The position numbers and the translations under genes are program-made. A DNA stretch of 64,000 nucleotides, from contig OY781964.1 in assembly GCA_963677485.1 (NCBI GenBank), positions 1,312,001 through 1,376,000 on the forward strand, in the 5' to 3' direction. The notes below the pieces were generated by a model that made no database searches, was not told where the DNA came from, and saw nothing but the letters and a program-made list of their open reading frames with translations. Positions 11,756 to 60,984 of the stretch are shown piece after piece (position 1 is the first letter of the stretch; the number at the start of each line of letters is the position of its first letter). This DNA comes from Armatimonadota bacterium. GTDB taxonomy: Bacteria > Armatimonadota > HRBIN16.

Positions 11756-12481
11756 TTACCCGGACAACCGTCGGTAGCGTAGAAATAGCTCGCTTTCGTG
11801 CTGATACACCGACACCAGCTCCATATGCCTGGCGGTTTCGCGGTCAAACCCCTCTCCCTCAACCGGTGTGCGGATGTGCTCACCGCCTTTAACCCAGGGA
11901 GCCAGTGTGAGGAACATCTCGTCGATCAGCTCCGCACGAAACATCTCGAAGTTCATGCCCCCACCGCCCTCGCACAACAGCAGCTTAACCCCCCGCTGCT
12001 CTGTCATAATCCGCACAGCTTGCTCCAGTTCCACCCGATTCTCACCTAACAGGTGTAACTCGGCGACGGCTTGAATGGCTTGCTGCTGCGGCAAAGGAAG
12101 GTTTTTAGGAGCAAATACAAGCGCAGGCCGCTGAACGTTGGTGAAGAAGCTGGAGTGCAACGGTAGATCACCGCTGGCGGTAACCACTGCGCGGGCAAGT
12201 GATGGCAGGTATGCGATTTTCCCGGCGCGAAGCGTGCTGGCCCCTATTATCACCCCATCGGCTTGCCGCTGCAGGCGGTGCATCAGCATCTGATCTATCG
12301 AGCTGCCCAACCCTTTGCTGCTGTCACCCAATCCACCTAGCGTGATTTTGCCGTCCAGGCTCATCACCATATTGAGATAGATGTAAGGTCGATCAGTGTG
12401 GGCGGTGGTGGGTACGACCGGGGTATACAAGGTATGCATATCACGGGGTTCACCCGATTTGTCAAACAGGCATTGCATCAA
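11756..12481 (-). CDS. RibD C-terminal/DHFR-like reductase
   Basis: NMVMSLDGKI, IIGASTLR, LLCEGGG, IDEMFLTLAP. Confidence 0.85.
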   Translation of the reverse strand: MMQCLFDKSGEPRDMHTLYTPVVPTTAHTDRPYIYLNMVMSLDGKITLGGLGDSSKGLGSSIDQMLMHRLQRQADGVIIGASTLRAGKIAYLPSLARAVVTASGDLPLHSSFFTNVQRPALVFAPKNLPLPQQQAIQAVAELHLLGENRVELEQAVRIMTEQRGVKLLLCEGGGGMNFEMFRAELIDEMFLTLAPWVKGGEHIRTPVEGEGFDRETARHMELVSVYQHESELFLRYRRLSG

Positions 12482-12504: not shown

Positions 12505-12731
12505 ATGGGCAACCACCGGGAGTCACCCCCCGGGCACGCCAATCTCCCGATTGGCATTCCCTCTCCATCCGACCGGTCCGGTTTTCCCTTTCCGGGCCGG
12601 TCTCTTCCCAAGGTGTTTTCCGAAGGGCGGATTCCGACGGATGAGACGGATTCGACCGATAACAATAGTGGGCAACCACGGGAGACCGTGTCGCATGCAT
12701 GAAGGGAGGTTCGCGTACCGCCCCTACGAAT
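12505..12731. repeat. Intergenic repeat cluster: GCCAATC hairpin, 9-nt triplet repeat, GTAG-type REP
   Basis: GCCAATCTCCCGATTGGC (12538-12555) recurs near 20438, 23208 and 56985; REP GAAGGGAGGTTCGCGTACCGCCCCTACGAAT at 12701-12731. Confidence 0.8.
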
Positions 12732-12782: not shown

Positions 12783-13193
12783 TTAATGGGGCAGTTCCTG
12801 CCCAGCCGCATGCATTCGTGCCATCGCCTTATCCAGCGACCGGCGCGCTTCGGCTCGGTTGTAATTCGGATCGTCCAGGTGTTCTCGAGCCCGTTCATAG
12901 GCTTCCATCGCACGTTGAACGTCGATGTCCTTCTCGCGTTCTGCACTGTCGGCTAGAATGACCACATGGTTATCCGCCACCTGCAGGAACCCGCCGCCTA
13001 TCGCCACGAGCTCATCGCTCAGGTCAGGATAAGTCACCGTCACCACTCCAGGCGCCAGTTCCGCCATCAACGGTGCATGGTCGTTGAGTATCCCAAATGA
13101 ACCCATCACACCAGGTGCGACCACACTACATGGTTCTTCCACCAGTACGGTATGGTCGGGCACCACGATTTCCAATTTGAAGCTCTTGGCCAT
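12783..13193 (-). CDS. atpC: ATP synthase epsilon subunit
   Basis: FGILNDHAPL, GGFLQV, VILADSAE; last gene of the operon. Confidence 0.95.
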   Translation of the reverse strand: MAKSFKLEIVVPDHTVLVEEPCSVVAPGVMGSFGILNDHAPLMAELAPGVVTVTYPDLSDELVAIGGGFLQVADNHVVILADSAEREKDIDVQRAMEAYERAREHLDDPNYNRAEARRSLDKAMARMHAAGQELPH

Positions 13194-20393: not shown

Positions 20394-20815
20394 GTCTGAA
20401 CCACGGATACCACGGATGGGTTCGGATGGAGAGGGATGCCAATCGGGAGATTAGCATATTGTCCTACTCATCCTACCCATCCTCTTGGGGTTCATATAAA
20501 CCGCGGATGAACGCAGATGAACGCAGATGGGGACTGGGCGGTAGAGGCGACCGGCGATCGCCCTTGTCGGGGGCACGGCACGCCATGCCCCTACGGTTCC
20601 AACAACAAACCCGGACGTTCGCAAGTACTCCGGACACCCACGAAGTGGGTAAGATTCATTATAGCCAGGGGTAAGCGAAGCGCAACCCCTGGAAAAGATG
20701 CAAAAGAACCTTACCCCGAAGTGGGTCGTCCGCCACCGCATGCACAGGCAACCACGGGGACTGCACTACGCCTTCACCGGAAATTCATCTGCGTCATCTG
20801 TGTAATCTGTGGATG
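20394..20815. repeat. Composite intergenic repeat cluster
   Basis: GTCTGAACCACGGAT...GCCAATCGGGAGATT module, 10-nt and 9-nt triplet repeats, GTAG/CTAC REP doublet 20541-20594, ~100-bp unit 20629-20728 also found at 50171. Confidence 0.85.
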
Positions 20816-26738: not shown

Positions 26739-26840
26739 TGTAAGGGGCATGACGTGCCGTGCCCGTATTGTCATCGGTCCGATCCGCCTAATCCGTCTGA
26801 TGGAATCGGCGGTAGGGGCGGGGTTTCCCCGCCCCTACGG
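26739..26840. repeat. REP cluster
   Basis: GTAGGGGCGGGGTTTCCCCGCCCCTAC (26812-26838) palindrome plus 9-nt triplet ATCGGTCCG ATCCGCCTA ATCCGTCTG. Confidence 0.75.
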
Positions 26841-38387: not shown

Positions 38388-38512
38388 AGCACCTGCCCGT
38401 GCTGACACGGCAGCCCTGGCTGTAACTGGTCGTAGGGGCCACCCTTGTGGTGGCAGTAATCGTTATTCTTTCGATGGTTCTGGTTCCGGGCGCCTACAAG
38501 GGACGTCCCTAC
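38388..38512. repeat. REP doublet plus a 38-bp module shared with 46921-46958
   Basis: GTAGGGGCCAC..GTGGC (38432-38454) and GGGCG..CGTCCCTAC (38488-38512); 33/38 inverted match to 46921-46958. Confidence 0.7.
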
Positions 38513-54067: not shown

Positions 54068-56812
54068 TTACGCAATAATGATAGAAACCCCCGCCACGCC
54101 CCAGTCGGCGGGCAGGAACAACAGATTTCCGCTGGTGCTGCTCAGGCGGAGCGTCAGCGTATGGTCACCTGCCGCAAGACCGCTCACGTCGAACCGGTAG
54201 GGTGGGGTGACGCGCTTGCCCAGCGACTGACCGTCCACTAGCAGCTCCAGGCAGTCGTGTTTGAGCAGTTCCACATCGAAACCCACGGTCTGGTTGGCCT
54301 GCGGCTCGGAAAGCGAGAAGCGGCCCTCCAAGCCCATCACGCCCATGTACTGCTCCCATCCCTGCTGCATCAGGTTGATCGGCAGGTGCTGAGGGGTGAA
54401 GTTTTCGGCTGTGATGACGCAGTCCACCAGCCGGAAGTCGCCCATCAAGCAGACATCGCATGAGGGCATTACGTCCGCCTCGAAGAAGGCGTCGTTGTGG
54501 ACACTGGTTTCGAACTGCGGATACTCCAACCGCGCCGTCACCTGGTTGGTGCCCACTTTGACCAGACCTAGAATGTCCACGCAGCCCAGCCTGTCCCAAA
54601 CGATCGCCTCTTGTGCCTGCGAAAGATACACACTCTGGCCATTGACGGTCAGGGAGCGCAGATACTCGGTCTCAAACAGCATCCCCAACTGAGTTGGCAG
54701 GCTCTGGCACTCAAACTGAGCACGCATCTCAAAGTGGGTCTCGCCGCGCAGGACGGCAGGGATGCCGGTGCAGTTTCGGGGTAGTTCTGGTATGAACGGG
54801 TCCATACTGGTGGCTGCGATCCAGCCTTCTTGGCCTCTGAACTCCATGTCGGACAGGGTGGCGGTGTTGGCGGTCTCCGGCGTCACACTCCACATCACAT
54901 CCAGAGGCTTCTGATGGCCCAATACGGGCTGAGCTGAGCTGGGCACGGCGGATGAAGTGAGGCTGAGGTATAGACAGCCCTGTGGGGCCATACAGTGCGC
55001 TTCTACGCCCTCCACAGCATACACAGCACCCGACAACGGCTCCCAGCGTGCCATATGCTGGCTTGAGCTGATGTTCACCGACACCGCTTCGGATGTGGTG
55101 TTGCGCAAGGCGAACAACTCACCATCACCGAACTCGTAGCGGGTCACCCGGATGGAACCAGCGGGTGCGTCGGTCTGCAGTGTCAGTCGCTCTGCCCAGC
55201 AGGACTTCTCTGAGGTGATATGTTGGATGATCTGAGCCGCAGGCTGGCGAAGAATCTGCGCGTTTTGTTTCTCCAGTCCGTCCAGCACCGCATCAGTGGC
55301 CTCGAAATATCTGAAATCTGAGGGGGCAATCAGCGCATCATATTCTGCATAAGGGAACTTGATGTGTCCGTCGCACAGCTCAGCCTGTCCCACCATCTCC
55401 GGGAACACAAACTCATAGCTTTCGCCTGCCTCATAGATCGCCCGACATACCTCCTCGGTCAGCGGCATCACCGGTTCCCCAGGCAAGCCAAAGCCGTTCT
55501 GGAAGGGGTTGTTCTGCTCCAGTTGATACTGCGGGTAGAGGACGGCGTAGCGGGCCTGGTGCTGGCCCAGCGAGGGCAGTGCGATGGAACGTGCGAAGGC
55601 ATCGCGGAACTGCGGAAAGAACTCCCACCAGGGGCAGCTTTGGAACAGCGGCGGCCAGTAGGTGCGCTTTCGTACACCGGTCAAGCCCTGATGGAAGCCC
55701 ATCAGCGCGATGTCGTTGATGCCGTAGATGCCGAACATCTGCGCCCGCTGCAGCATATCGGAGAGCCGCAGGTCATATCGCGAGATACCGAACGCCTCGC
55801 AATATACCCGGTCATGCCCGGAATGCCGTGCGATGCTGGGCACCAGCACCTCCTCCATGAACACATGTTCAGGATCGGGCATCATACCCAGGTAGTCGAT
55901 GCCCGGCTCATCCATCAGCGACAGGCACTGGTAGGCACTGCCGGCAAACTTCACCTGCATCAAGAACGCATTCTCCCCCAGATGGCCCGTATACCCCACC
56001 CCGTGAGCGTGGCACCAGTCCGACATCTGGGCGTGGTAGGCCTCCACATGCATCTGCTTCACCACGGCCCAGTAATCCTGGCGGAATTGGCATGGGGCCG
56101 GATCGGTCAGCTCCACATAATGGGCCTGTATGTCGTAGCCATGCATCTTCTCAAACCGCGCAGGCAGCTCGGGTGTCCAGGGCAGTCCGATGGTGTTCCA
56201 GCAGCCCTCCAGCCTCTTCTCGTTGATCACCATTGTGGTGGGCTCATCGGTGAAGAAGCCGCGCACCACCTCATGGAACAGCTCGCCACACTCTTCGTAG
56301 ATTCGCTGGTGGTTCATCTGGATAAAGCAGTTCACCGCGTCGACGGATAGTGTGTCCAGATAGCCGATCTCGTTTTGTGTCCATGGGGCACCAAGCGTGT
56401 TATCAAGCTGCACATCGGGATGAGAGGGCACTGCGGTCACGGCTCCGTGCTCATCCTTGTCGAACTTCAGGAACCAGCCGTTAAACTCCGGGTGCTCGCG
56501 CAGCAGGAAACCGCCAGCCACCCCGCTGGGCCACCCAAACTCGTCATACACCCACACCTTCAGACCGTGCTTCTTAGCAAGTGTCAGCGCATGCCGATAC
56601 CGCTCGAAGAACTCGTCGGACAGGTATGGGATGGTCATACCGTGTACGGGGTGGATCAGGAACTCCCGCAACCCGCTCGCGGCCATTTCAGCCACCACTT
56701 CGTCCATACGGGTATGGTTCATGTCGGCATTCCAGAACCAGAAGGCGCTGGGTCGGTAAGGTTGGCTCATCTCCAACCAGTTTTCGGCAAGGGTGTGCAG
56801 AGAGTTACTCAT
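54068..56812 (-). CDS. Glycoside hydrolase, GH106-like (alpha-L-rhamnosidase-like)
   Basis: FWFWN, YDEFGWPSG.AGG, FFTDEP, PWT, GH..E, PGID, CEAFG; AGGAG RBS before ATG 56812. Confidence 0.7.
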   Translation of the reverse strand: MSNSLHTLAENWLEMSQPYRPSAFWFWNADMNHTRMDEVVAEMAASGLREFLIHPVHGMTIPYLSDEFFERYRHALTLAKKHGLKVWVYDEFGWPSGVAGGFLLREHPEFNGWFLKFDKDEHGAVTAVPSHPDVQLDNTLGAPWTQNEIGYLDTLSVDAVNCFIQMNHQRIYEECGELFHEVVRGFFTDEPTTMVINEKRLEGCWNTIGLPWTPELPARFEKMHGYDIQAHYVELTDPAPCQFRQDYWAVVKQMHVEAYHAQMSDWCHAHGVGYTGHLGENAFLMQVKFAGSAYQCLSLMDEPGIDYLGMMPDPEHVFMEEVLVPSIARHSGHDRVYCEAFGISRYDLRLSDMLQRAQMFGIYGINDIALMGFHQGLTGVRKRTYWPPLFQSCPWWEFFPQFRDAFARSIALPSLGQHQARYAVLYPQYQLEQNNPFQNGFGLPGEPVMPLTEEVCRAIYEAGESYEFVFPEMVGQAELCDGHIKFPYAEYDALIAPSDFRYFEATDAVLDGLEKQNAQILRQPAAQIIQHITSEKSCWAERLTLQTDAPAGSIRVTRYEFGDGELFALRNTTSEAVSVNISSSQHMARWEPLSGAVYAVEGVEAHCMAPQGCLYLSLTSSAVPSSAQPVLGHQKPLDVMWSVTPETANTATLSDMEFRGQEGWIAATSMDPFIPELPRNCTGIPAVLRGETHFEMRAQFECQSLPTQLGMLFETEYLRSLTVNGQSVYLSQAQEAIVWDRLGCVDILGLVKVGTNQVTARLEYPQFETSVHNDAFFEADVMPSCDVCLMGDFRLVDCVITAENFTPQHLPINLMQQGWEQYMGVMGLEGRFSLSEPQANQTVGFDVELLKHDCLELLVDGQSLGKRVTPPYRFDVSGLAAGDHTLTLRLSSTSGNLLFLPADWGVAGVSIIIA

Positions 56813-56880
56813 GATGTCTCCTGAATGATGAACGTATCGGTAATATTTAACCACAACCGCAGTCTTCTGGGCAGACGCAC

Positions 56881-57195
56881 GAAGGGCGGTTCTCGAACCG
56901 CCACGACACGCCAGACCGCGCCAGGGATTTGTCTGAACCACGGATTACACGGATGGGATCGGATAGGTTCGGATGGGAAGGGAGGCCAATCAGGAGATTG
57001 GCGTTCCCAGGGGAATTCCCCCTCTGCGTCCTTGCATCCTTGCGCCTTTGCGTTGGTTGATCGCACCTTTCGTGCCGATAACCAAATCTGCGCAATCTGC
57101 GTCATCTGTGGATTTAAATCCCTTGGTGCCTCATGCCATCAGCTACGGAAATGGCCTTTCCTCGACGCAAGAAGGGCGGTTCGCGAACCGCCCCT
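56881..57195. repeat. Repeat cluster flanking the IS110 left end
   Basis: Two AGGGCGGTTC.CGAACCGCC REPs, GTCTGAACCACGGAT/GCCAATC module, 8-nt and 9-nt tandem triplets. Confidence 0.85.
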
Positions 57196-57209
57196 AGTAC
57201 GCTATATAT

Positions 57210-57410
57210 GGTGAGCTCCCCGGACACCAAAAGCAGTCGGGGAGCTAATCTCACCCCTTAGCTGGGGGTGAAGGAGAAGGATTGGATGCCGGAACCGCCC
57301 CTGGTGGAAAACACCGTGACGTAGATAGGCATCCTTCTCCCAATCAACCCATATCGAACAGTATCTTGGGAGAAAACCCCGTGTTCGCTAGGCTGATTTG
57401 GTTGATTGCA
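57210..57410 (+). ncRNA. Bridge RNA of the IS110 element (ends approximate)
   Basis: Two 5' hairpins; target-binding loop (GAACCGCCCCT 57292-57302, CGTAG 57320-57324) and donor-binding loop (ACAGTATCT 57358-57366, CTAG 57388-57391), each closed by a stem and split by a GAAAA-loop hairpin. Confidence 0.85.
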
Positions 57411-57441
57411 CCATCAATCACTACCAACTGGAGATTACCAC

Positions 57442-58718
57442 ATGCACGAAGTTGAAGACAAAATCTACATCCATTATGTCGGGATCGACATCTCGAAATT
57501 GACGTTTGACGCGTCTGTATTAGGTTCATCGCACAAGCCGATAGACCATAAGGAGTTCAAGAACAACAAGGCCGGATACAAGGAGTTGTTGTCATGGGTG
57601 AAGAAGCTTACCCGAACTCCCGCCTTGTATGCGGCTGAAGCCACCGGGCCTTACAGCCGACCGCTGCTTGATTACCTCTACGAGCACCAGCACGATGCTG
57701 TCCAACTGGAGCCAAAACGGGTTCTCTATCACCGCAAAGCCAAAGGCTGGGAACAAAAGACGGACTGCTCTGACAGCGTGCTAATCGCTGACTATGTGAA
57801 AAGTCACAATGTCTCACTCTATGTCCCTCGTCTAGCATGCTATGATGCGCTTATTGGTTACACCAATGACCGCCGTATGAGGCGATCGCCCAGCGCCAAA
57901 GCTGTCGGCTTACGCGGAGCACAGTGCTGGACGAGATGATCGCTTTTCATGACATGGGCATCAAAAAGCTTGATGTTCAGATCAAAGAGCTTGTGATGAG
58001 TTCACCGCAGATGACCGAAGATATGGCTCTGCTGAAGAGCATTCCGGGTATCGGCGACGTCACAGCAAGCTATTTCCTTGCGAAAATCGGTGATGCTAAA
58101 CGATTTGAAACATCGAAAGCGGTCGCGCGCTATTTCGGAATGAACCCCTGCCCGCAACGGTCAGGAAGCTGCAAGACATACGACGGCTCCATATCCAAGA
58201 TGGGTGACCGATATATGCGGACATTACTCTACTGTGGATCGAGCACTGTGGTGAAGATGGTCAACGGTAAGTCGAAAAAGCTTGGCCAGAGCATGCACGA
58301 CTTCGTGAAGGAACTGCAGCATCCGAATTTGGTAAAGAATCCCAATAAGAAACCGAAGTCCAAGCGAGTTGTCCGGTGCGCAATCATGCGCAAGCAGCTG
58401 GTGCTCATGTGGTCGGTATTAATCAGCCGTCAGCCATATGATCCAAACTTCGGCATCGAACAAGCTTCAAATGCGGCCAACCAGCAACCGCTGACCGACG
58501 CGAACGGACATGTCCAGGATCGTGCCGGAGCGGCCCATGATATAGCCGGTGTAGGCAATGATCCTGGGCTGGACGTGAGCGTTCCAAGACGGGGATGCGT
58601 GGATGGAAATCCCACCAATGAGCCCACTCCTGCCGGCGGTGGTCGGCCCGCATCCCGAAACCGGCCATCGCGCAGTCGGGTGGGCAACAAACCGAGGGTT
58701 CTGACACCAGTATCCTAG
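57442..58718 (+). pseudogene. IS110 recombinase, frameshifted near 57876-57881
   Basis: Frame 1: VGIDISK, EATG.Y, KTD..D; frame 2: SIPGIG, RF....VARYFG..P....SG, ISKMG..Y.R..LY; linker looks shortened. Confidence 0.85.
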
Positions 58719-58970
58719 CTGCGGCAGTCTGCCGATAGCACGCATCGAAGCATAACGATATCTTTCGAAGCCACGAAGATGTCGCACGTCCGTTCGCGAC
58801 TCCGAGCGTCATGTGAGGTGCTACGGACCAACTGATGCCATCTGAGCCTGTTTCTGTCGCGGATCCAGGTTTGGTCTATATGCCACAAACATCACATTAA
58901 CGTTATTCTACGTGGTCTAGAGCCAGTGTCTGATATTCAGGTCCAAATCCCCAGATTTGCCCCTGGGGAC

Positions 58971-58976
58971 TTGACA
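58971..58976 (+). promoter_or_regulatory. -35 box of the circle-junction promoter (partner -10 TACGCT at 57198-57203)
   Basis: TTGACA, then 15 nt to the element end plus AG gives a 17-nt spacer to TACGCT in the circular form. Confidence 0.8.
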
Positions 58977-59030
58977 AAAGCCACAGTATCTACGAATATA
59001 TGCGGTGAGATCGGGTTTTGGGGGCGATGT

Positions 59031-59056
59031 GTAGGGGCGTTTCGAGAAACGCCCTT
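59031..59056 (+). repeat. GTAG-type REP, inverted partner of the interrupted REP
   Basis: GTAGGGGCGTTTCGAGAAACGCCCTT palindrome. Confidence 0.8.
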
Positions 59057-59073
59057 CCCATGCTGCCGACGGT

Positions 59074-60984
59074 TTAGTCTCCCCGCACGGACACAATCCG
59101 AAAGGTGCCGGACTCCACGCTCAGGCTGACCTCGCCGCCCACCAAAGGCATCGCCAGCTCAGGATGCAGCTCATCCTGGCAGCGCAGCGGATTTCGCTCC
59201 GTTATGCCCATCCCACGACGGTGGAAGCTCAAGGCCGTCGTGACCCTGCTGCTGCCCAGATTCGCCACGATGAACAGGGCCCGATGTCCCTTCACCAGAT
59301 AGGCGCTGATCTTGATATTCTCCGTGTTAGAGGAATGGATCAGCTCCTGTGTCTTCCAGTACGGCACCCAGACTGCACCGGTCATCCCGAAAGATCCGAA
59401 GGCTTTCCAGATGTCCGACTGGTGCTCAGGATGCCATATCATCATCACATCGTAGAGTATGGCCAGACTGCGCGCCCGTTCGCGTTCGACCGCATTTCCA
59501 GATATCGGCAATTGGGTGGCGGGTATACCGAAGTTGTGCCCGTGCATCTCTGCACGGAACACATCCTCAGGGTATTCGGGAGTGCCCAGCTTCATCATCG
59601 ACAGCAGATGCTCGCCATCAACGTAGAAATCTGCGAACGAGAGGGCAGGCAGTAGCACGCTAGCCGAGGTGTGGCAGAACAAGATGCCTGGCTTTGCTTG
59701 ATCCTTGACCAGACGATACAGCCCCTTCATCAGCTCCCGCGTGCGCCAGATGGCCATCGTGGGGTGGATTGTGCCATCTTTGCCCCGATACCCGCAACCG
59801 TGCCGGGTGTTAACACACGGCAACGGACAGCTCAAACCGTCGGTGTAAATGCCCCCAAAGCCGTATTCGGCGACTGCCGCGGTGTATTGCTTCAACAGCA
59901 GCTCGGGATAGGGCGTGGCGTTACACACGATACGGCAGATGTCCTGGTTGTCGGGCCTTTGGTACTGGTAGTGATCGCCTATCGGCAGAGAATCCCATCG
60001 GCTCGAATATTCTGGCGATCGAGTGGACATATAGCACCCGGTATAGGGCACAAGCCGCATCCCCTTGGCTCTACAGGCCGCAATCAATGTCCGCAGCTCT
60101 TGAGGGTCTTTCGGCCTGGGCAGGCTCTGCTGGTCGGACCAAGACTCGTGAAACCCCAGATAGTTCACGCCCAGACCAGCCAGCACGTCCAGATAGGCGG
60201 GTTGAGTGGCAGGATCAGGGCTCTTCTCGATGCCGTATCCGCCCATATGGCAATAGCGCATTTGGTAGTAGTCGGCGGGCCACGGCTTCACCGGGGTGGC
60301 CATAAACCCAAAGCACCACTCCCAGTCACCGGTCAACCGATGACGGCTCAGCAGGTTCATCCTGAGGGTCGTCACATTGCAGTCTGGTAGCACCGTGATG
60401 GCACTCTCTGGGTCAGCAGGCGACCAGGGTTCATCGCTTTCGGAAAAGAACTGGATTCCCCTGTCGTCACTGCCCAGCCAAAGATGGTGAACAAACGGCA
60501 GCTTCATCCCCTCAGGCTTGACCGCACCGGCGTTGATGCGCTTTTTGGGCCAGTCCCACACATGAGTCGGGTAGACGGAAGCATGATGGAAATACGAGGC
60601 GTCGCTCCGCTTCAGAGGAATCACCAGATCCAGCGAATCCAGGCTGAGCTCTTTGCCTGCCGAGAGTTTCATGTCGATCCTGGTCATACCATCAAATTCG
60701 GTGGTGATTCGGCAGGTAACGGACAGCTCACGGCTGCTAGCATGGGTCACATACTGCACTGACTCCCTGTCGGAGCTCATTTCTTTGAATTTGATGTTGC
60801 TCCACCGCAGCCTCTTTCCAGCGGTGATGGCGACCAACTGCATCGGCCCAGCAAGGATGTTCTTCTTCTGCGAGATGACTTTCGCCGGAAGCAGCGACAG
60901 GTTGTAGTCGTAAACCCGCCCCCAGCAGTGAACCGACTGCCCCCGTATGACAGGGATGCTCCACGGTGAGATCGTTGCTGCCAT
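59074..60984 (-). CDS. Glycoside hydrolase-like protein (DUF6067-like)
   Basis: EFDG, FGFMATPVKP, GIYTDG, C....HGC, HTS, DGEH motifs. Confidence 0.55.
   Translation of the reverse strand: MAATISPWSIPVIRGQSVHCWGRVYDYNLSLLPAKVISQKKNILAGPMQLVAITAGKRLRWSNIKFKEMSSDRESVQYVTHASSRELSVTCRITTEFDGMTRIDMKLSAGKELSLDSLDLVIPLKRSDASYFHHASVYPTHVWDWPKKRINAGAVKPEGMKLPFVHHLWLGSDDRGIQFFSESDEPWSPADPESAITVLPDCNVTTLRMNLLSRHRLTGDWEWCFGFMATPVKPWPADYYQMRYCHMGGYGIEKSPDPATQPAYLDVLAGLGVNYLGFHESWSDQQSLPRPKDPQELRTLIAACRAKGMRLVPYTGCYMSTRSPEYSSRWDSLPIGDHYQYQRPDNQDICRIVCNATPYPELLLKQYTAAVAEYGFGGIYTDGLSCPLPCVNTRHGCGYRGKDGTIHPTMAIWRTRELMKGLYRLVKDQAKPGILFCHTSASVLLPALSFADFYVDGEHLLSMMKLGTPEYPEDVFRAEMHGHNFGIPATQLPISGNAVERERARSLAILYDVMMIWHPEHQSDIWKAFGSFGMTGAVWVPYWKTQELIHSSNTENIKISAYLVKGHRALFIVANLGSSRVTTALSFHRRGMGITERNPLRCQDELHPELAMPLVGGEVSLSVESGTFRIVSVRGD

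What the first reader, a model, noticed from the sequence alone, without database searches (positions are those of the whole stretch)
12701..12731. Uninterrupted copy of the IS110 target: the element is aimed at a host REP family
Excising 57196-58991 rebuilds GAAGGGCGGTTCGCGAACCGCCCCTACGAAT, which differs at two positions from 12701-12731. Related GTAG/CTAC REPs lie at 20541-20594, 26812-26838 (contains CCGCCCCTACG), 38432-38512, 56883-56902 and 59031-59056. The last would be the inverted partner of the interrupted REP, about 40 bp away. REP targeting is known for IS621 in E. coli; here the guide fits a different REP sequence, giving a multi-copy intergenic safe harbour. The 12701 copy has an A>T change inside the guide-matched stretch, which may explain why it is empty.
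Basis: partly seen in the sequence, partly recalled or inferred. Interest (0 to 1): 0.72.

Follow-up and report, generated by a model that had tools for sequence, protein, structure and literature searches.

The report
REP-targeting IS110 element, one empty site
A small jumping gene of the RNA-guided IS110 family has filled almost every perfectly matching copy of one short repeated palindrome in this bacterial genome, and the site at 12701 is a worn-out, still empty copy of that palindrome; this is an ordinary, already known kind of behaviour.

Summary
The inserted element is an IS621-like IS110-family insertion sequence. It has 12 near-identical copies in the 5.22-Mb genome. The window copy carries a 16-bp frameshifting deletion. 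All 12 copies sit at the same place, after the CT of the CTAC (GTAG) head of a REP-like palindrome, and 10 of 12 lie in one family. An 11-nt stretch in an internal loop of the element's 5' non-coding RNA is identical to the target. Two sister elements carry different loop sequences that match their own, different REP families. A congener holds the exact empty allele. Of 7 perfect 12-nt sites, 6 are occupied; of 60 one-mismatch sites, 3 are. The 12701 copy is a decayed REP: both changes break stem pairs, and its orthologue in the congener is intact. The A>T lies outside the 9-nt guide length defined for IS621, so it is not shown to be the cause of emptiness. No cognate RAYT gene was found. REP targeting by IS110 elements is well documented, so this is a new member of a known kind.

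The parts
12701..12731 (+). Empty, decayed copy of the target REP. The stem is at 12704-12723 and the CTAC head at 12724-12727. The two substitutions are at 12707 and 12716.
   Evidence: The DNA fold is -3.8 kcal/mol and 81 of 200 shuffles fold as well, against -8.8 to -9.6 kcal/mol for intact copies. The orthologue in congener G003 is intact and matches the guide perfectly. The copy lies between minus-strand ORFs 11756-12481 and 12783-13193.
56884..56903 (+). Headless copy of the same REP stem. It has no CCCCTAC head and is not a target.
   Evidence: genome position 1368884, 1 mismatch.
57171..57195 (+). Left part of the interrupted REP: stem 57174-57193 and core CT 57194-57195. The 11 nt at 57185-57195 are identical to the guide.
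   Evidence: The uninterrupted allele is in G003 at L027 3672-3702.
57196..58991 (+). IS110-family insertion sequence, 1796 bp. It is one of 12 genome copies and a defective variant with a 16-bp deletion.
   Evidence: Read-contig depth over the element is about 11-14 times that of the left flank.
57196..57441 (+). 5' non-coding region encoding a bridge-RNA-like transcript. The target-binding stem-loop is at 57273-57340 and the donor-binding stem-loop at 57341-57408.
   Evidence: The RNA fold is -88 kcal/mol, z = -3.2, and 0 of 200 shuffles fold as well. The consensus fold of three sister elements has 10 of 51 pairs with compensatory change. The region is identical in all 12 copies. No Rfam family matches it.
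57292..57302 (+). Left target guide (LTG-like). It is 11 nt and identical to the top strand of the target up to and including the core CT.
57321..57324 (+). Right target guide (RTG-like), GTAG. It is complementary to CTAC, that is the core plus the first two bases of the right target.
   Evidence: It is conserved in all three sister elements.
57358..57366 (+). Left donor guide (LDG-like). It is 9 nt and identical to the last 9 nt of the element's right end (58983-58991).
57388..57391 (+). Right donor guide (RDG-like), CTAG. It is complementary to the core plus the first two bases of the left end. The sister elements carry a different left end and a matching different RDG.
57442..57939 (+). N-terminal transposase fragment (DEDD RuvC-like domain). 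It goes out of frame after 57879.
   Evidence: PF01548, E = 6e-20. The deletion point is 57879|57880. tblastn matches residues 1-146.
57879..58718 (+). C-terminal transposase fragment (Transposase_20 domain plus a roughly 95-aa extension). The listed ORF is 57924-58718.
   Evidence: PF02371, E = 1.9e-22. tblastn matches residues 152-430.
58971..58976 (+). TTGACA in the right end. In a circular form it would lie 17 nt upstream of TACGCT at 57198-57203, giving a junction promoter as in IS621.
   Evidence: Read. The same arrangement is present in the two sister elements. Circles were not observed.
58992..58993 (+). AC, the right target and the rest of the REP head.
   Evidence: AC in 11 of 12 copies, AT in 1 of 12.
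59031..59056 (-). Inverted partner REP (T..A stem variant). It is an empty site with a one-mismatch match to the guide.
   Evidence: genome 1371031-1371054. The same doublet is present in G003.
26812..26838 (.). Double-headed REP of another family. It ends in CCCCGCCCCTAC, the same 12-mer as one occupied off-family site.

Best explanation
Window 57196-58991 is a copy of an IS621-like IS110-family insertion sequence. Its recombinase is guided by a bridge RNA encoded in the element's own 5' non-coding end. One internal loop of that RNA carries GAACCGCCCCU on its 5' side and GUAG on its 3' side. The first pairs with the bottom strand left of the cut and the second with the top strand right of it. 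Together they specify the last bases of the stem plus the CTAC (GTAG) head of one host REP family. Recombination occurs at the core CT, so the element lands between CT and AC in a fixed orientation.

The element has spread to 12 sites. It has filled 6 of the 7 perfectly matching REPs and a few mismatched ones. The window copy has lost its reading frame through a 16-bp deletion. The same deleted variant lies at a second site, so it was probably moved in trans by the 10 intact copies.

Window 12701-12731 is an unoccupied, mutationally decayed member of the same REP family.

Shown: the anatomy, the site identity, guide-target and guide-donor identity and covariation, the empty allele, and the occupancy gradient. 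Inferred: RNA expression, base-pairing as the cause of site choice, a circular intermediate, and trans-mobilisation.
For: - The protein carries PF01548 and PF02371. It scores 180.6 bits against the NCBIfam 'IS110 family RNA-guided transposase' model, cut-off 140. It matches the IS621 transposase structure 8wt6_A at E = 2.5e-28 over residues 10-274. D16, E66, D108, D111 and S246 are invariant in 8 relatives.
- There are 12 full-length copies. All 12 of 12 left flanks end in CCCCT. Right flanks begin AC in 11 of 12 and AT in 1 of 12. 10 of 12 copies lie in one palindrome family, all in one orientation relative to the REP. The sequence beyond the REP is different at every copy.
- The congener G003 matches the left flank up to 57195 and the right flank from 58995 on adjacent bases, at 90-91% identity. 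It has an uninterrupted REP doublet there.
- An 11-nt stretch in an internal loop of the folded 5' region is identical to the target.
- At the homologous alignment columns, sister element IS-B carries CGCGCCCCT and sits in a REP ending with the same 9 nt. Sister element IS-C has 9 copies in G003 and carries GGGTCATCCCT; 5 of those copies sit after exactly that sequence and 8 of 9 lie in one REP family. The donor guides covary with the element ends in the same way.
- Occupancy falls with mismatch. For the 12-mer: 6 of 7 sites with 0 mismatches, 3 of 60 with 1, 2 of 525 with 2, and 0 of 4361 with 3 (Fisher p = 5.6e-6 for 0 against 1 mismatch). Within REP context: 6 of 7 against 4 of 29, p = 6.7e-4.
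- IS621 is documented to insert at the CT of ...GGCCTAC in E. coli REPs, with a nine-base LTG, a four-base RTG and a promoter split between RE and LE (Durrant 2024, PMC11208160, passages).
Against: - No RNA, circle or transposition event was observed. The public runs are held as contigs only and show neither an empty-site join nor a circle junction.
- Rfam has no matching family.
- Covariation rests on three elements, two of which are close to each other.
- One of the 12 copies (genome 2863787) lies at a site with more than 3 mismatches to the 12-mer. Four sit at sites mismatched at position -8. So pairing is not strict.
- Occupied and empty sites also differ in hairpin quality, so the occupancy gradient does not isolate base-pairing from recognition of the REP structure.
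- The guide matches the minor stem variant of this genome (7 sites) rather than the commonest one (18 to 19 sites).
Confidence: 0.9

Rival explanations
1. One reading: the 12701 REP is empty because the A>T at 12716 breaks pairing with the guide.
For: The change lies inside the 11-nt stretch of identity between loop and target. REPs with any single mismatch are rarely occupied, 4 of 29 against 6 of 7.
Against: The change is at position -10. By the IS621 rule (nine-base LTG, 11-nt target; Durrant 2024 passages) the 11-mer ACCGCCCCTAC is intact at 12701. Of 9 such sites in the genome, 6 are occupied. One copy of this element (genome 2713096) and one copy of IS-C (L024) sit at sites mismatched at both -10 and -11. 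IS-B matches its target for only 9 nt.
Confidence: 0.2
2. The 12701 REP is empty because its hairpin is destroyed. On this view the recombinase needs the REP stem-loop as a second determinant beside RNA pairing, as reported for ISPpu10.
For: Both substitutions hit stem pairs. The DNA fold is -3.8 kcal/mol (z = -0.24), against -9.6 kcal/mol for the intact orthologue and for the one perfect empty site. Among the 9 sites with an intact 11-mer, 6 of 7 with an intact stem are occupied and 0 of 2 without one. Both off-family insertions are also in palindromic REP-like sequence. The ISPpu10 preprint 10.64898/2026.03.19.712850 (abstract only) reports a target stem-loop as an added specificity determinant.
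Against: The comparison of 6 of 7 against 0 of 2 gives p = 0.083. One IS-C copy (L024) lies outside its REP family. The structural requirement was not tested here, and only the abstract of the preprint was read.
Confidence: 0.3
3. The 12701 REP is empty simply by chance or history. Most imperfect sites are empty, the burst is recent, and nothing specific protects this copy.
For: The 12 copies differ at only 6 columns apart from the deletion, so the expansion is recent. 25 of 29 imperfect CTAC- or CTAT-headed REPs of the family are empty, as are 57 of 60 one-mismatch 12-mers.
Against: Near-saturation of the perfect sites (6 of 7) shows that site quality matters strongly, so 'chance' is not independent of the two changes.
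Confidence: 0.4
4. Site choice is made by the protein alone, which recognises the REP. The match between loop and target is coincidental, or a relic of the element having captured REP sequence.
For: REP-specific insertion without an RNA guide is known for other IS families (recalled, not checked here). The REP head bases CCCCTAC are shared by many REP families in this genome.
Against: Three sister elements with near-identical RNA scaffolds differ precisely in the loop bases, and each matches its own target family. The donor guides covary with the ends as well. 43 intact CCCCGCCCCTAC sites share the head, yet only 1 site with that 12-mer is occupied.
Confidence: 0.04
5. The copies spread together with their REP flanks by segmental duplication or homologous recombination, not by targeted insertion.
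For: None beyond the shared 25-nt left flank.
Against: The sequence beyond the REP is unrelated at all 12 copies. A congener has the same locus without the element. 19 full REPs of the family stand without an element.
Confidence: 0.01

Closest known systems
IS621 of Escherichia coli (IS110 family, bridge-RNA-guided recombinase)
   Same: - DEDD plus Transposase_20 recombinase, matching 8wt6_A at E = 2.5e-28.
- A 5' non-coding RNA with two internal-loop stem-loops.
- An LTG identical to the left target and a 4-nt RTG.
- A CT core.
- Insertion at the CT of the CTAC head of a REP. The IS621 target is ATCAGGCCTAC, within REPs ending ...GGCCTAC (Durrant 2024 passages).
- A -35 box in the right end that would join a -10 box in the left end (for IS621; read here).
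   Different: - Only a distant protein match.
- 430 aa against a 328-residue chain, with a C-terminal extension of about 95 aa that is conserved among close relatives.
- A different REP family and guide.
- Identity with the target runs for 11 nt rather than 9.
- Nothing here has been tested experimentally.
ISPpu9 and ISPpu10 of Pseudomonas putida KT2440, and ISPa11, ISPsy8, ISRm19, ISRm22 (REP-inserting IS elements)
   Same: Multi-copy IS elements whose copies all sit inside REPs: Tobes and Pareja 2006, PMC1525189 (abstract); PMC12288879 (search listing and abstract start). ISPpu10 uses its bridge RNA plus a target stem-loop (preprint abstract).
   Different: A different host, REP sequence and guide. 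Sequence relatedness to those elements was not measured here.
Sister elements found here: IS-B (G000 1296596-1298386, 44% identity) and IS-C (9 copies in congener G003, 42% identity)
   Same: The same RNA scaffold, the same right end, the same RTG, the same CT core and the same junction-promoter layout.
   Different: The guides are reprogrammed to other REP families (CGCGCCCCT and GGGTCATCCCT). The left ends differ, with matching different RDGs. Occupancy is far from saturation: 8 IS-C copies lie in the family against 30 intact GGTCATCCCTAC sites in G003.

Membership tests
IS110 family, IS110 group (bridge-RNA type, IS621-like) | [quoted passage not shown] | tested here: met
   (E = 6e-20 and 1.9e-22). 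(NF033542, 180.6 bits, cut-off 140). (IS621, E = 2.5e-28). D16, E66, D108, D111 and S246 are invariant in 8 sequences. In the window copy the gene is split by a 16-bp deletion.
IS110 family, IS110 group (bridge-RNA type, IS621-like) | No terminal inverted repeats, and no target duplication beyond a short shared core | tested here: met
   The ends read are not inverted repeats of each other. CT stands at both junctions. The empty allele in G003 has a single CT.
IS110 family, IS110 group (bridge-RNA type, IS621-like) | Long non-coding left end that folds into a 5' stem-loop plus two stem-loops with internal loops | tested here: met
   (z = -3.2, 0 of 200 shuffles). (consensus of three elements; compensatory changes in the outer and inner stems of the target-binding loop). 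Expression was not tested.
IS110 family, IS110 group (bridge-RNA type, IS621-like) | Loop sequences match the target (LTG/RTG) and the element ends (LDG/RDG), both including the core | tested here: met
   The LTG is 11 of 11 identical to 57185-57195. The RTG is GTAG against CTAC. The LDG is 9 of 9 identical to 58983-58991. The RDG is CTAG. These covary in IS-B and IS-C.
IS110 family, IS110 group (bridge-RNA type, IS621-like) | Circular double-stranded intermediate with a promoter formed at the RE-LE junction | tested here: inconclusive
   TTGACA at 58971-58976 and TACGCT at 57198-57203 would be 17 nt apart in a circle (read). No circle junction was seen in contigs of 4 runs, and contigs cannot show rare forms.
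REP (repetitive extragenic palindromic) elements | Short imperfect palindrome present in many copies | tested here: met
   There are 41 exact and 13 one-mismatch instances of the 20-nt stem pattern. Full stem plus head occurs 19 times intact in G000, 79 times in G003 and 0 times in G004, with controls at 0.
REP (repetitive extragenic palindromic) elements | Extragenic location | tested here: met
   This is a crude test. 12 of 62 loci lie in an open frame of 200 or more codons, against 1279 of 1500 random positions.
REP (repetitive extragenic palindromic) elements | GTAG head next to the stem | tested here: met
   34 of 122 strand-readings of the stem (62 loci) carry CTAC. Degenerate heads (TTAC 7, CTAG 4 and others) make up part of the rest.
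REP (repetitive extragenic palindromic) elements | A cognate RAYT (REP-associated tyrosine transposase) gene flanked by the REPs | tested here: not met
   Three Y1_Tnp genes were found. Two of them pass the IS200/IS605 model cut-off and the third falls just short of it (53.9 bits, cut-off 55). They reach at most 31 bits on the RAYT model, cut-off 80. One RAYT-like ORF (G000 2151583-2152407, 62.4 bits, below 80) is flanked by a different repeat family, with no GTAGGGG-type head within 400 bp on either side. The flanks of the three others also show other repeats.

The most novel reading that the evidence does not exclude
Target exhaustion with host turnover. Meanwhile the matching REP variant is eight times rarer here (7 sites) than in the element-free congener (57 to 58 sites), and at least one orthologous copy (12701) has decayed. 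If the rarity and decay reflect selection against targetable REPs, this would be a natural case of a host repeat family eroding under pressure from an RNA-guided transposon. The alternative is simply a recent REP burst in the congener.
Probability: 0.12. Interest if true: 0.55.

Novelty: new member of a known kind. Interest (0 to 1): 0.3.

Why it matters
This is a clean natural illustration of bridge-RNA programmability. Two congeneric genomes hold three sister elements with the same RNA scaffold and different guides, each fitted to a different REP family. One of the three has nearly saturated its perfect sites.

That gives three things:
- A natural read-out of mismatch tolerance: position -8 is tolerated, and positions -9 to -11 are dispensable at least once.
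- A small test set for the recently proposed role of the target hairpin.
- Three orthogonal recombinase and guide pairs of a 430-aa subgroup that is only distantly related to IS621.

It does not change what is known about IS110 elements or REPs.

Tried and rejected
- **Single-protein locus scans.** The scans of genome contigs and metagenome contigs found no relative. A scan with an 8-sequence alignment found 305 relatives. Apart from eight loci at 41-42% in one 5.3-Mb record titled only as a metagenome-assembled chromosome, the kept ones were at most 31% identical, with one partial match at 40%. I did not analyse the distant ones for guides.
- **DNA for the closest protein relatives.** Relatives at 95, 84, 83, 68 and 61% identity come from short metagenome contigs, and their DNA could not be fetched. 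Their guides are therefore unknown.
- **Orthologues of the 58 perfect G003 sites in G000.** I tried to place them using 300-bp flanks. Only 26 of 58 could be placed with both flanks together, and many of those placements were through other repeats. I dropped the count. Only three orthologous pairs are used: the window insertion site, 12701, and the 1872954 site.
- **Reads.** Four runs held as contigs show the element at about 11-14 times the depth of the left flank. They show the undeleted variant as the main contig form. No contig joins 57195 to 58992, and no circle junction appears. Contigs cannot show rare forms, so this says nothing about activity.
- **REPs followed by AGTACG without an element.** CCCCTAGTACG occurs 9 times in G000 and 11 times in the element-free G003, with reversed-pattern controls at 4 and 4. 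I considered these as scars or solo left ends and rejected that reading: they occur without the element in G003. Two of them are merely the start of an unrelated repeat of about 195 bp; that query gave 87 BLAST hits, 14 of them covering most of its length.
- **Rfam.** It gave only two chance snoRNA-like hits below threshold in 56000-60000.
- **Supplements.** Supplementary files of the papers were not opened. Durrant's Supplementary Data 2 and Table 1 may already list relatives of this element or this target motif.

Full report
**The observation.** Window 57171-57195 ends with the stem of a palindrome plus CT, and 58992 onward begins with AC. Removing 57196-58991 rebuilds a 31-mer. Window 12701-12731 differs from it at two positions, 12707 (C>A) and 12716 (A>T). 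The partner REP at 59031-59056 is inverted relative to the interrupted one, and its head lies 37 nt from it.

The 11-mer GAACCGCCCCT with up to one mismatch occurs 6 times in the window against 1.14 expected, and 0 of 100 shuffles reach 6. The two exact hits are the target at 57185-57195 and a site inside the element at 57292-57302.

**What the inserted element is.** Its two ORFs carry PF01548 and PF02371. The window lies in a one-contig genome of 5.22 Mb with 54.4% G+C. BLAST finds 12 full-length copies: 10 of 1812 bp and 2 of 1796 bp.

The window copy differs from the copy at 2029089 only by a 16-bp deletion after window 57879. That deletion splits a 430-aa reading frame. The same deletion is present in the copy at 1872954.

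Apart from the deletion, the 12 copies differ at 6 columns, all beyond element position 873. The 5' non-coding region is therefore identical in all copies.

The intact protein scores as follows:
- 180.6 bits on the NCBIfam model 'IS110 family RNA-guided transposase', cut-off 140.
- E = 2.5e-28 against the IS621 transposase structure 8wt6_A over residues 10-274.

Close relatives at 95 to 61% identity exist only on short metagenome contigs. Next comes a group at 41-42%, and everything else is at 32% or less.

**Where the copies sit.**
- All 12 of 12 left flanks end in CCCCT.
- Right flanks begin with AC in 11 of 12 copies and with AT in 1 of 12.
- 10 of 12 copies lie in one palindrome family, GGGCG-N-TTC-NN-GAA-N-CGCCC, always on the same side and in the same orientation.
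- The other two copies lie in other palindromic, REP-like sequences ending in CCCCT.
- Beyond the REP, all 12 flanks are unrelated.

This rules out spread by duplication of a larger segment.

**The empty allele.** In the same-genus genome G003, the 2196 bases left of the element match up to the base equivalent to 57195 at 91% identity. The bases from 58995 onward match from three bases further on at 90% identity. The G003 sequence shows an uninterrupted REP followed by the same inverted partner REP. The boundaries of the element are therefore exact, with CT as the shared core.

**The guide.** The 247-nt 5' region folds at -88 kcal/mol, with z = -3.2 and 0 of 200 shuffles folding as well. The fold has a 5' hairpin and two stem-loops with large internal loops.

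- In the first stem-loop (57273-57340), the 5' side of the loop holds the 11 nt identical to the target. The 3' side holds GTAG, the complement of CTAC.
- In the second stem-loop (57341-57408), the 5' side holds 9 nt identical to the last 9 nt of the element. The 3' side holds CTAG, the complement of the core plus the first two bases of the left end.

[quoted passage not shown] IS621 has a nine-base LTG, a four-base RTG and an 11-nt target (Durrant 2024, PMC11208160, passages).

**Covariation.** The genome holds a second element, IS-B, at 44% protein identity. G003 holds nine copies of a third, IS-C, at 42% identity. The three 5' regions align well, and their consensus fold keeps the stems, with 10 of 51 pairs showing compensatory change. 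They differ exactly in the loop bases:
- **IS-B** carries CGCGCCCCT and sits after the same 9 nt in a different REP.
- **IS-C** carries GGGTCATCCCT. Five of its 9 copies sit after exactly that 11-mer and 8 of 9 lie in one further REP family. All 9 left flanks end in TCCCT. Right flanks begin with AC in 8 of 9 and with AT in 1 of 9.

IS-B and IS-C have a different left end from the window element and a correspondingly different 3' side in the donor loop.

All three have TTGACA near the right end. In a circle, that would place it 17 nt upstream of a TA..CT hexamer in the left end. This matches the split promoter described for IS621.

**Occupancy.** I cut the 12 copies out in silico and scanned for the 12-mer AACCGCCCCTAC.

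| Mismatches to the 12-mer | Sites | Occupied |
|---|---|---|
| 0 | 7 | 6 |
| 1 | 60 | 3 |
| 2 | 525 | 2 |
| 3 | 4361 | 0 |

The twelfth copy sits at a site with more than 3 mismatches. Fisher p = 5.6e-6 for 0 against 1 mismatch.

Within the REP family the counts by 13-mer are as follows.

| 13-mer | Sites | Occupied |
|---|---|---|
| GAACCGCCCCTAC | 7 | 6 |
| GAATCGCCCCTAC | 18 | 2 |
| The same with TAT | 1 | 1 |
| GAAACGCCCCTAC | 4 | 1 |
| Five other single-mismatch CTAC-headed copies, including 12701 | 5 | 0 |

That is 6 of 7 against 4 of 29, p = 6.7e-4.

The intact 12-mer is not enriched in this genome, with 1 found against 0.83 expected. That is because its copies are nearly all occupied.

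**The 12701 copy.**
- By the IS621 rule its 11-mer is intact. Of 9 such sites in the genome, 6 are occupied. The three empty ones are a perfect REP at G000 3624466, the 12701 copy, and a site outside any REP.
- The A>T is at position -10. One copy of this element and one copy of IS-C sit at sites mismatched at both -10 and -11.
- Both substitutions fall on stem pairs. The copy folds at -3.8 kcal/mol and 81 of 200 shuffles do as well, against -8.8 to -9.6 kcal/mol for three intact copies.
- The orthologous REP in G003 is intact and matches the guide fully, so the G000 changes look derived.

A preprint on ISPpu10 (abstract only) reports that a target stem-loop adds specificity beyond pairing. 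That would fit, but 6 of 7 against 0 of 2 is not significant (p = 0.083). I leave the cause of emptiness open between hairpin decay, the edge mismatch, and chance.

**Is it a REP family?**
- The stem pattern occurs 41 times exactly and 13 times with one mismatch.
- Full stem plus head occurs 19 times intact in G000, 79 times in G003 and 0 times in a third congener, with controls at 0.
- 12 of 62 loci lie in open frames of 200 or more codons, against 1279 of 1500 random positions.
- 34 of 122 strand-readings carry the CTAC head.

No cognate RAYT was found:
- Three Y1 transposase genes were found. Two pass the IS200/IS605 model cut-off and the third falls just short of it. All three are far below the RAYT cut-off.
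- One RAYT-like ORF at 62 bits, below the cut-off of 80, is flanked by another repeat family.

**Comparison of the two genomes.** G003 lacks the window element. It has 58 perfect 13-mers against 1 intact plus 6 occupied in G000.
- In G003 the G..C stem variant dominates, with 57 of 79 full REPs.
- In G000 the A..T variant dominates, with 16 of 19 intact REPs.

The guide therefore fits the variant that is rare in its present host. A recent REP burst in G003 is the simplest reading. Loss or decay in G000 is the bolder one, and I could not test it.

**What is known.**
- IS621 was described as REP-specific in 2003, as cited in Durrant 2024 (reference list seen).
- Tobes and Pareja 2006 listed several REP-inserting IS elements (abstract).
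- ISPpu9 has seven copies in REPs (abstract start).
- Durrant 2024 showed the RNA-guided mechanism and mapped 144 of 173 IS621 insertions to REPs (passage).

This finding is therefore a new member of a known kind. It is well supported by sequence evidence and untested at the bench.

Noticed in passing
window 56909-57054: A repeat of about 145 bp, rich in CGGAT-like words, lies just left of the insertion site. It has 77 matches in the congener G003. Its contig depth in the public runs is about 80-100 times that of the flank. Similar words stand at 12630-12660 next to the 12701 REP. It looks like a high-copy MITE-like element of unknown kind.
   Followed up: no
window 57879|57880 and genome G000 1871159-1872954: The same 16-bp frameshifting deletion is present in two copies at two different perfect REP sites. 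Either a defective copy was moved in trans by the intact copies, or the deletion spread by gene conversion.
   Followed up: partly
G000 C1 1296596-1298386, and 2667680-2672040 (outside the window): A second IS110-family element (IS-B) aimed at another REP family. Its second copy is interrupted by about 2.5 kb of other DNA between the two halves of the transposase gene.
   Followed up: partly
G000 C1 2151583-2152407, minus strand (outside the window): A RAYT-like ORF (62 bits on the RAYT model, below the cut-off of 80). It sits in the middle of arrays of a different repeat of about 100 bp that contains GTCCGGGGCGGTCTG. It is likely the mobilising enzyme of that other repeat family.
   Followed up: partly
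G003 C1, the 58 sites: The orientation of the perfect REPs follows genome position. They are mostly on the plus strand from 0.23 to 1.8 Mb and from 4.5 to 5.3 Mb, and mostly on the minus strand from 1.7 to 4.0 Mb. This suggests a strand bias tied to the direction of replication.
   Followed up: no
G000 C1, 9 sites such as 2010706, 2851059 and 1990837; 11 sites in G003: REP heads followed by AGTACG, the first bases of the element's left end, occur without any element in both genomes, with reversed-pattern controls at 4 and 4. The element's left end thus resembles a natural REP flank variant. The reason is unknown.
   Followed up: partly
G000 C1 1990842-1991035 and at least 13 other places: A repeat of about 195 bp. 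It gave 87 BLAST hits, 14 of which cover most of its length, and typical copies start after ...CTTATCATCTGGC. Its kind is unknown.
   Followed up: no
protein P0001, residues about 336-430: The recombinase has a C-terminal extension of about 95 aa that is absent from IS621. It has invariant positions across 8 relatives as far as G406. Its function is unknown.
   Followed up: no
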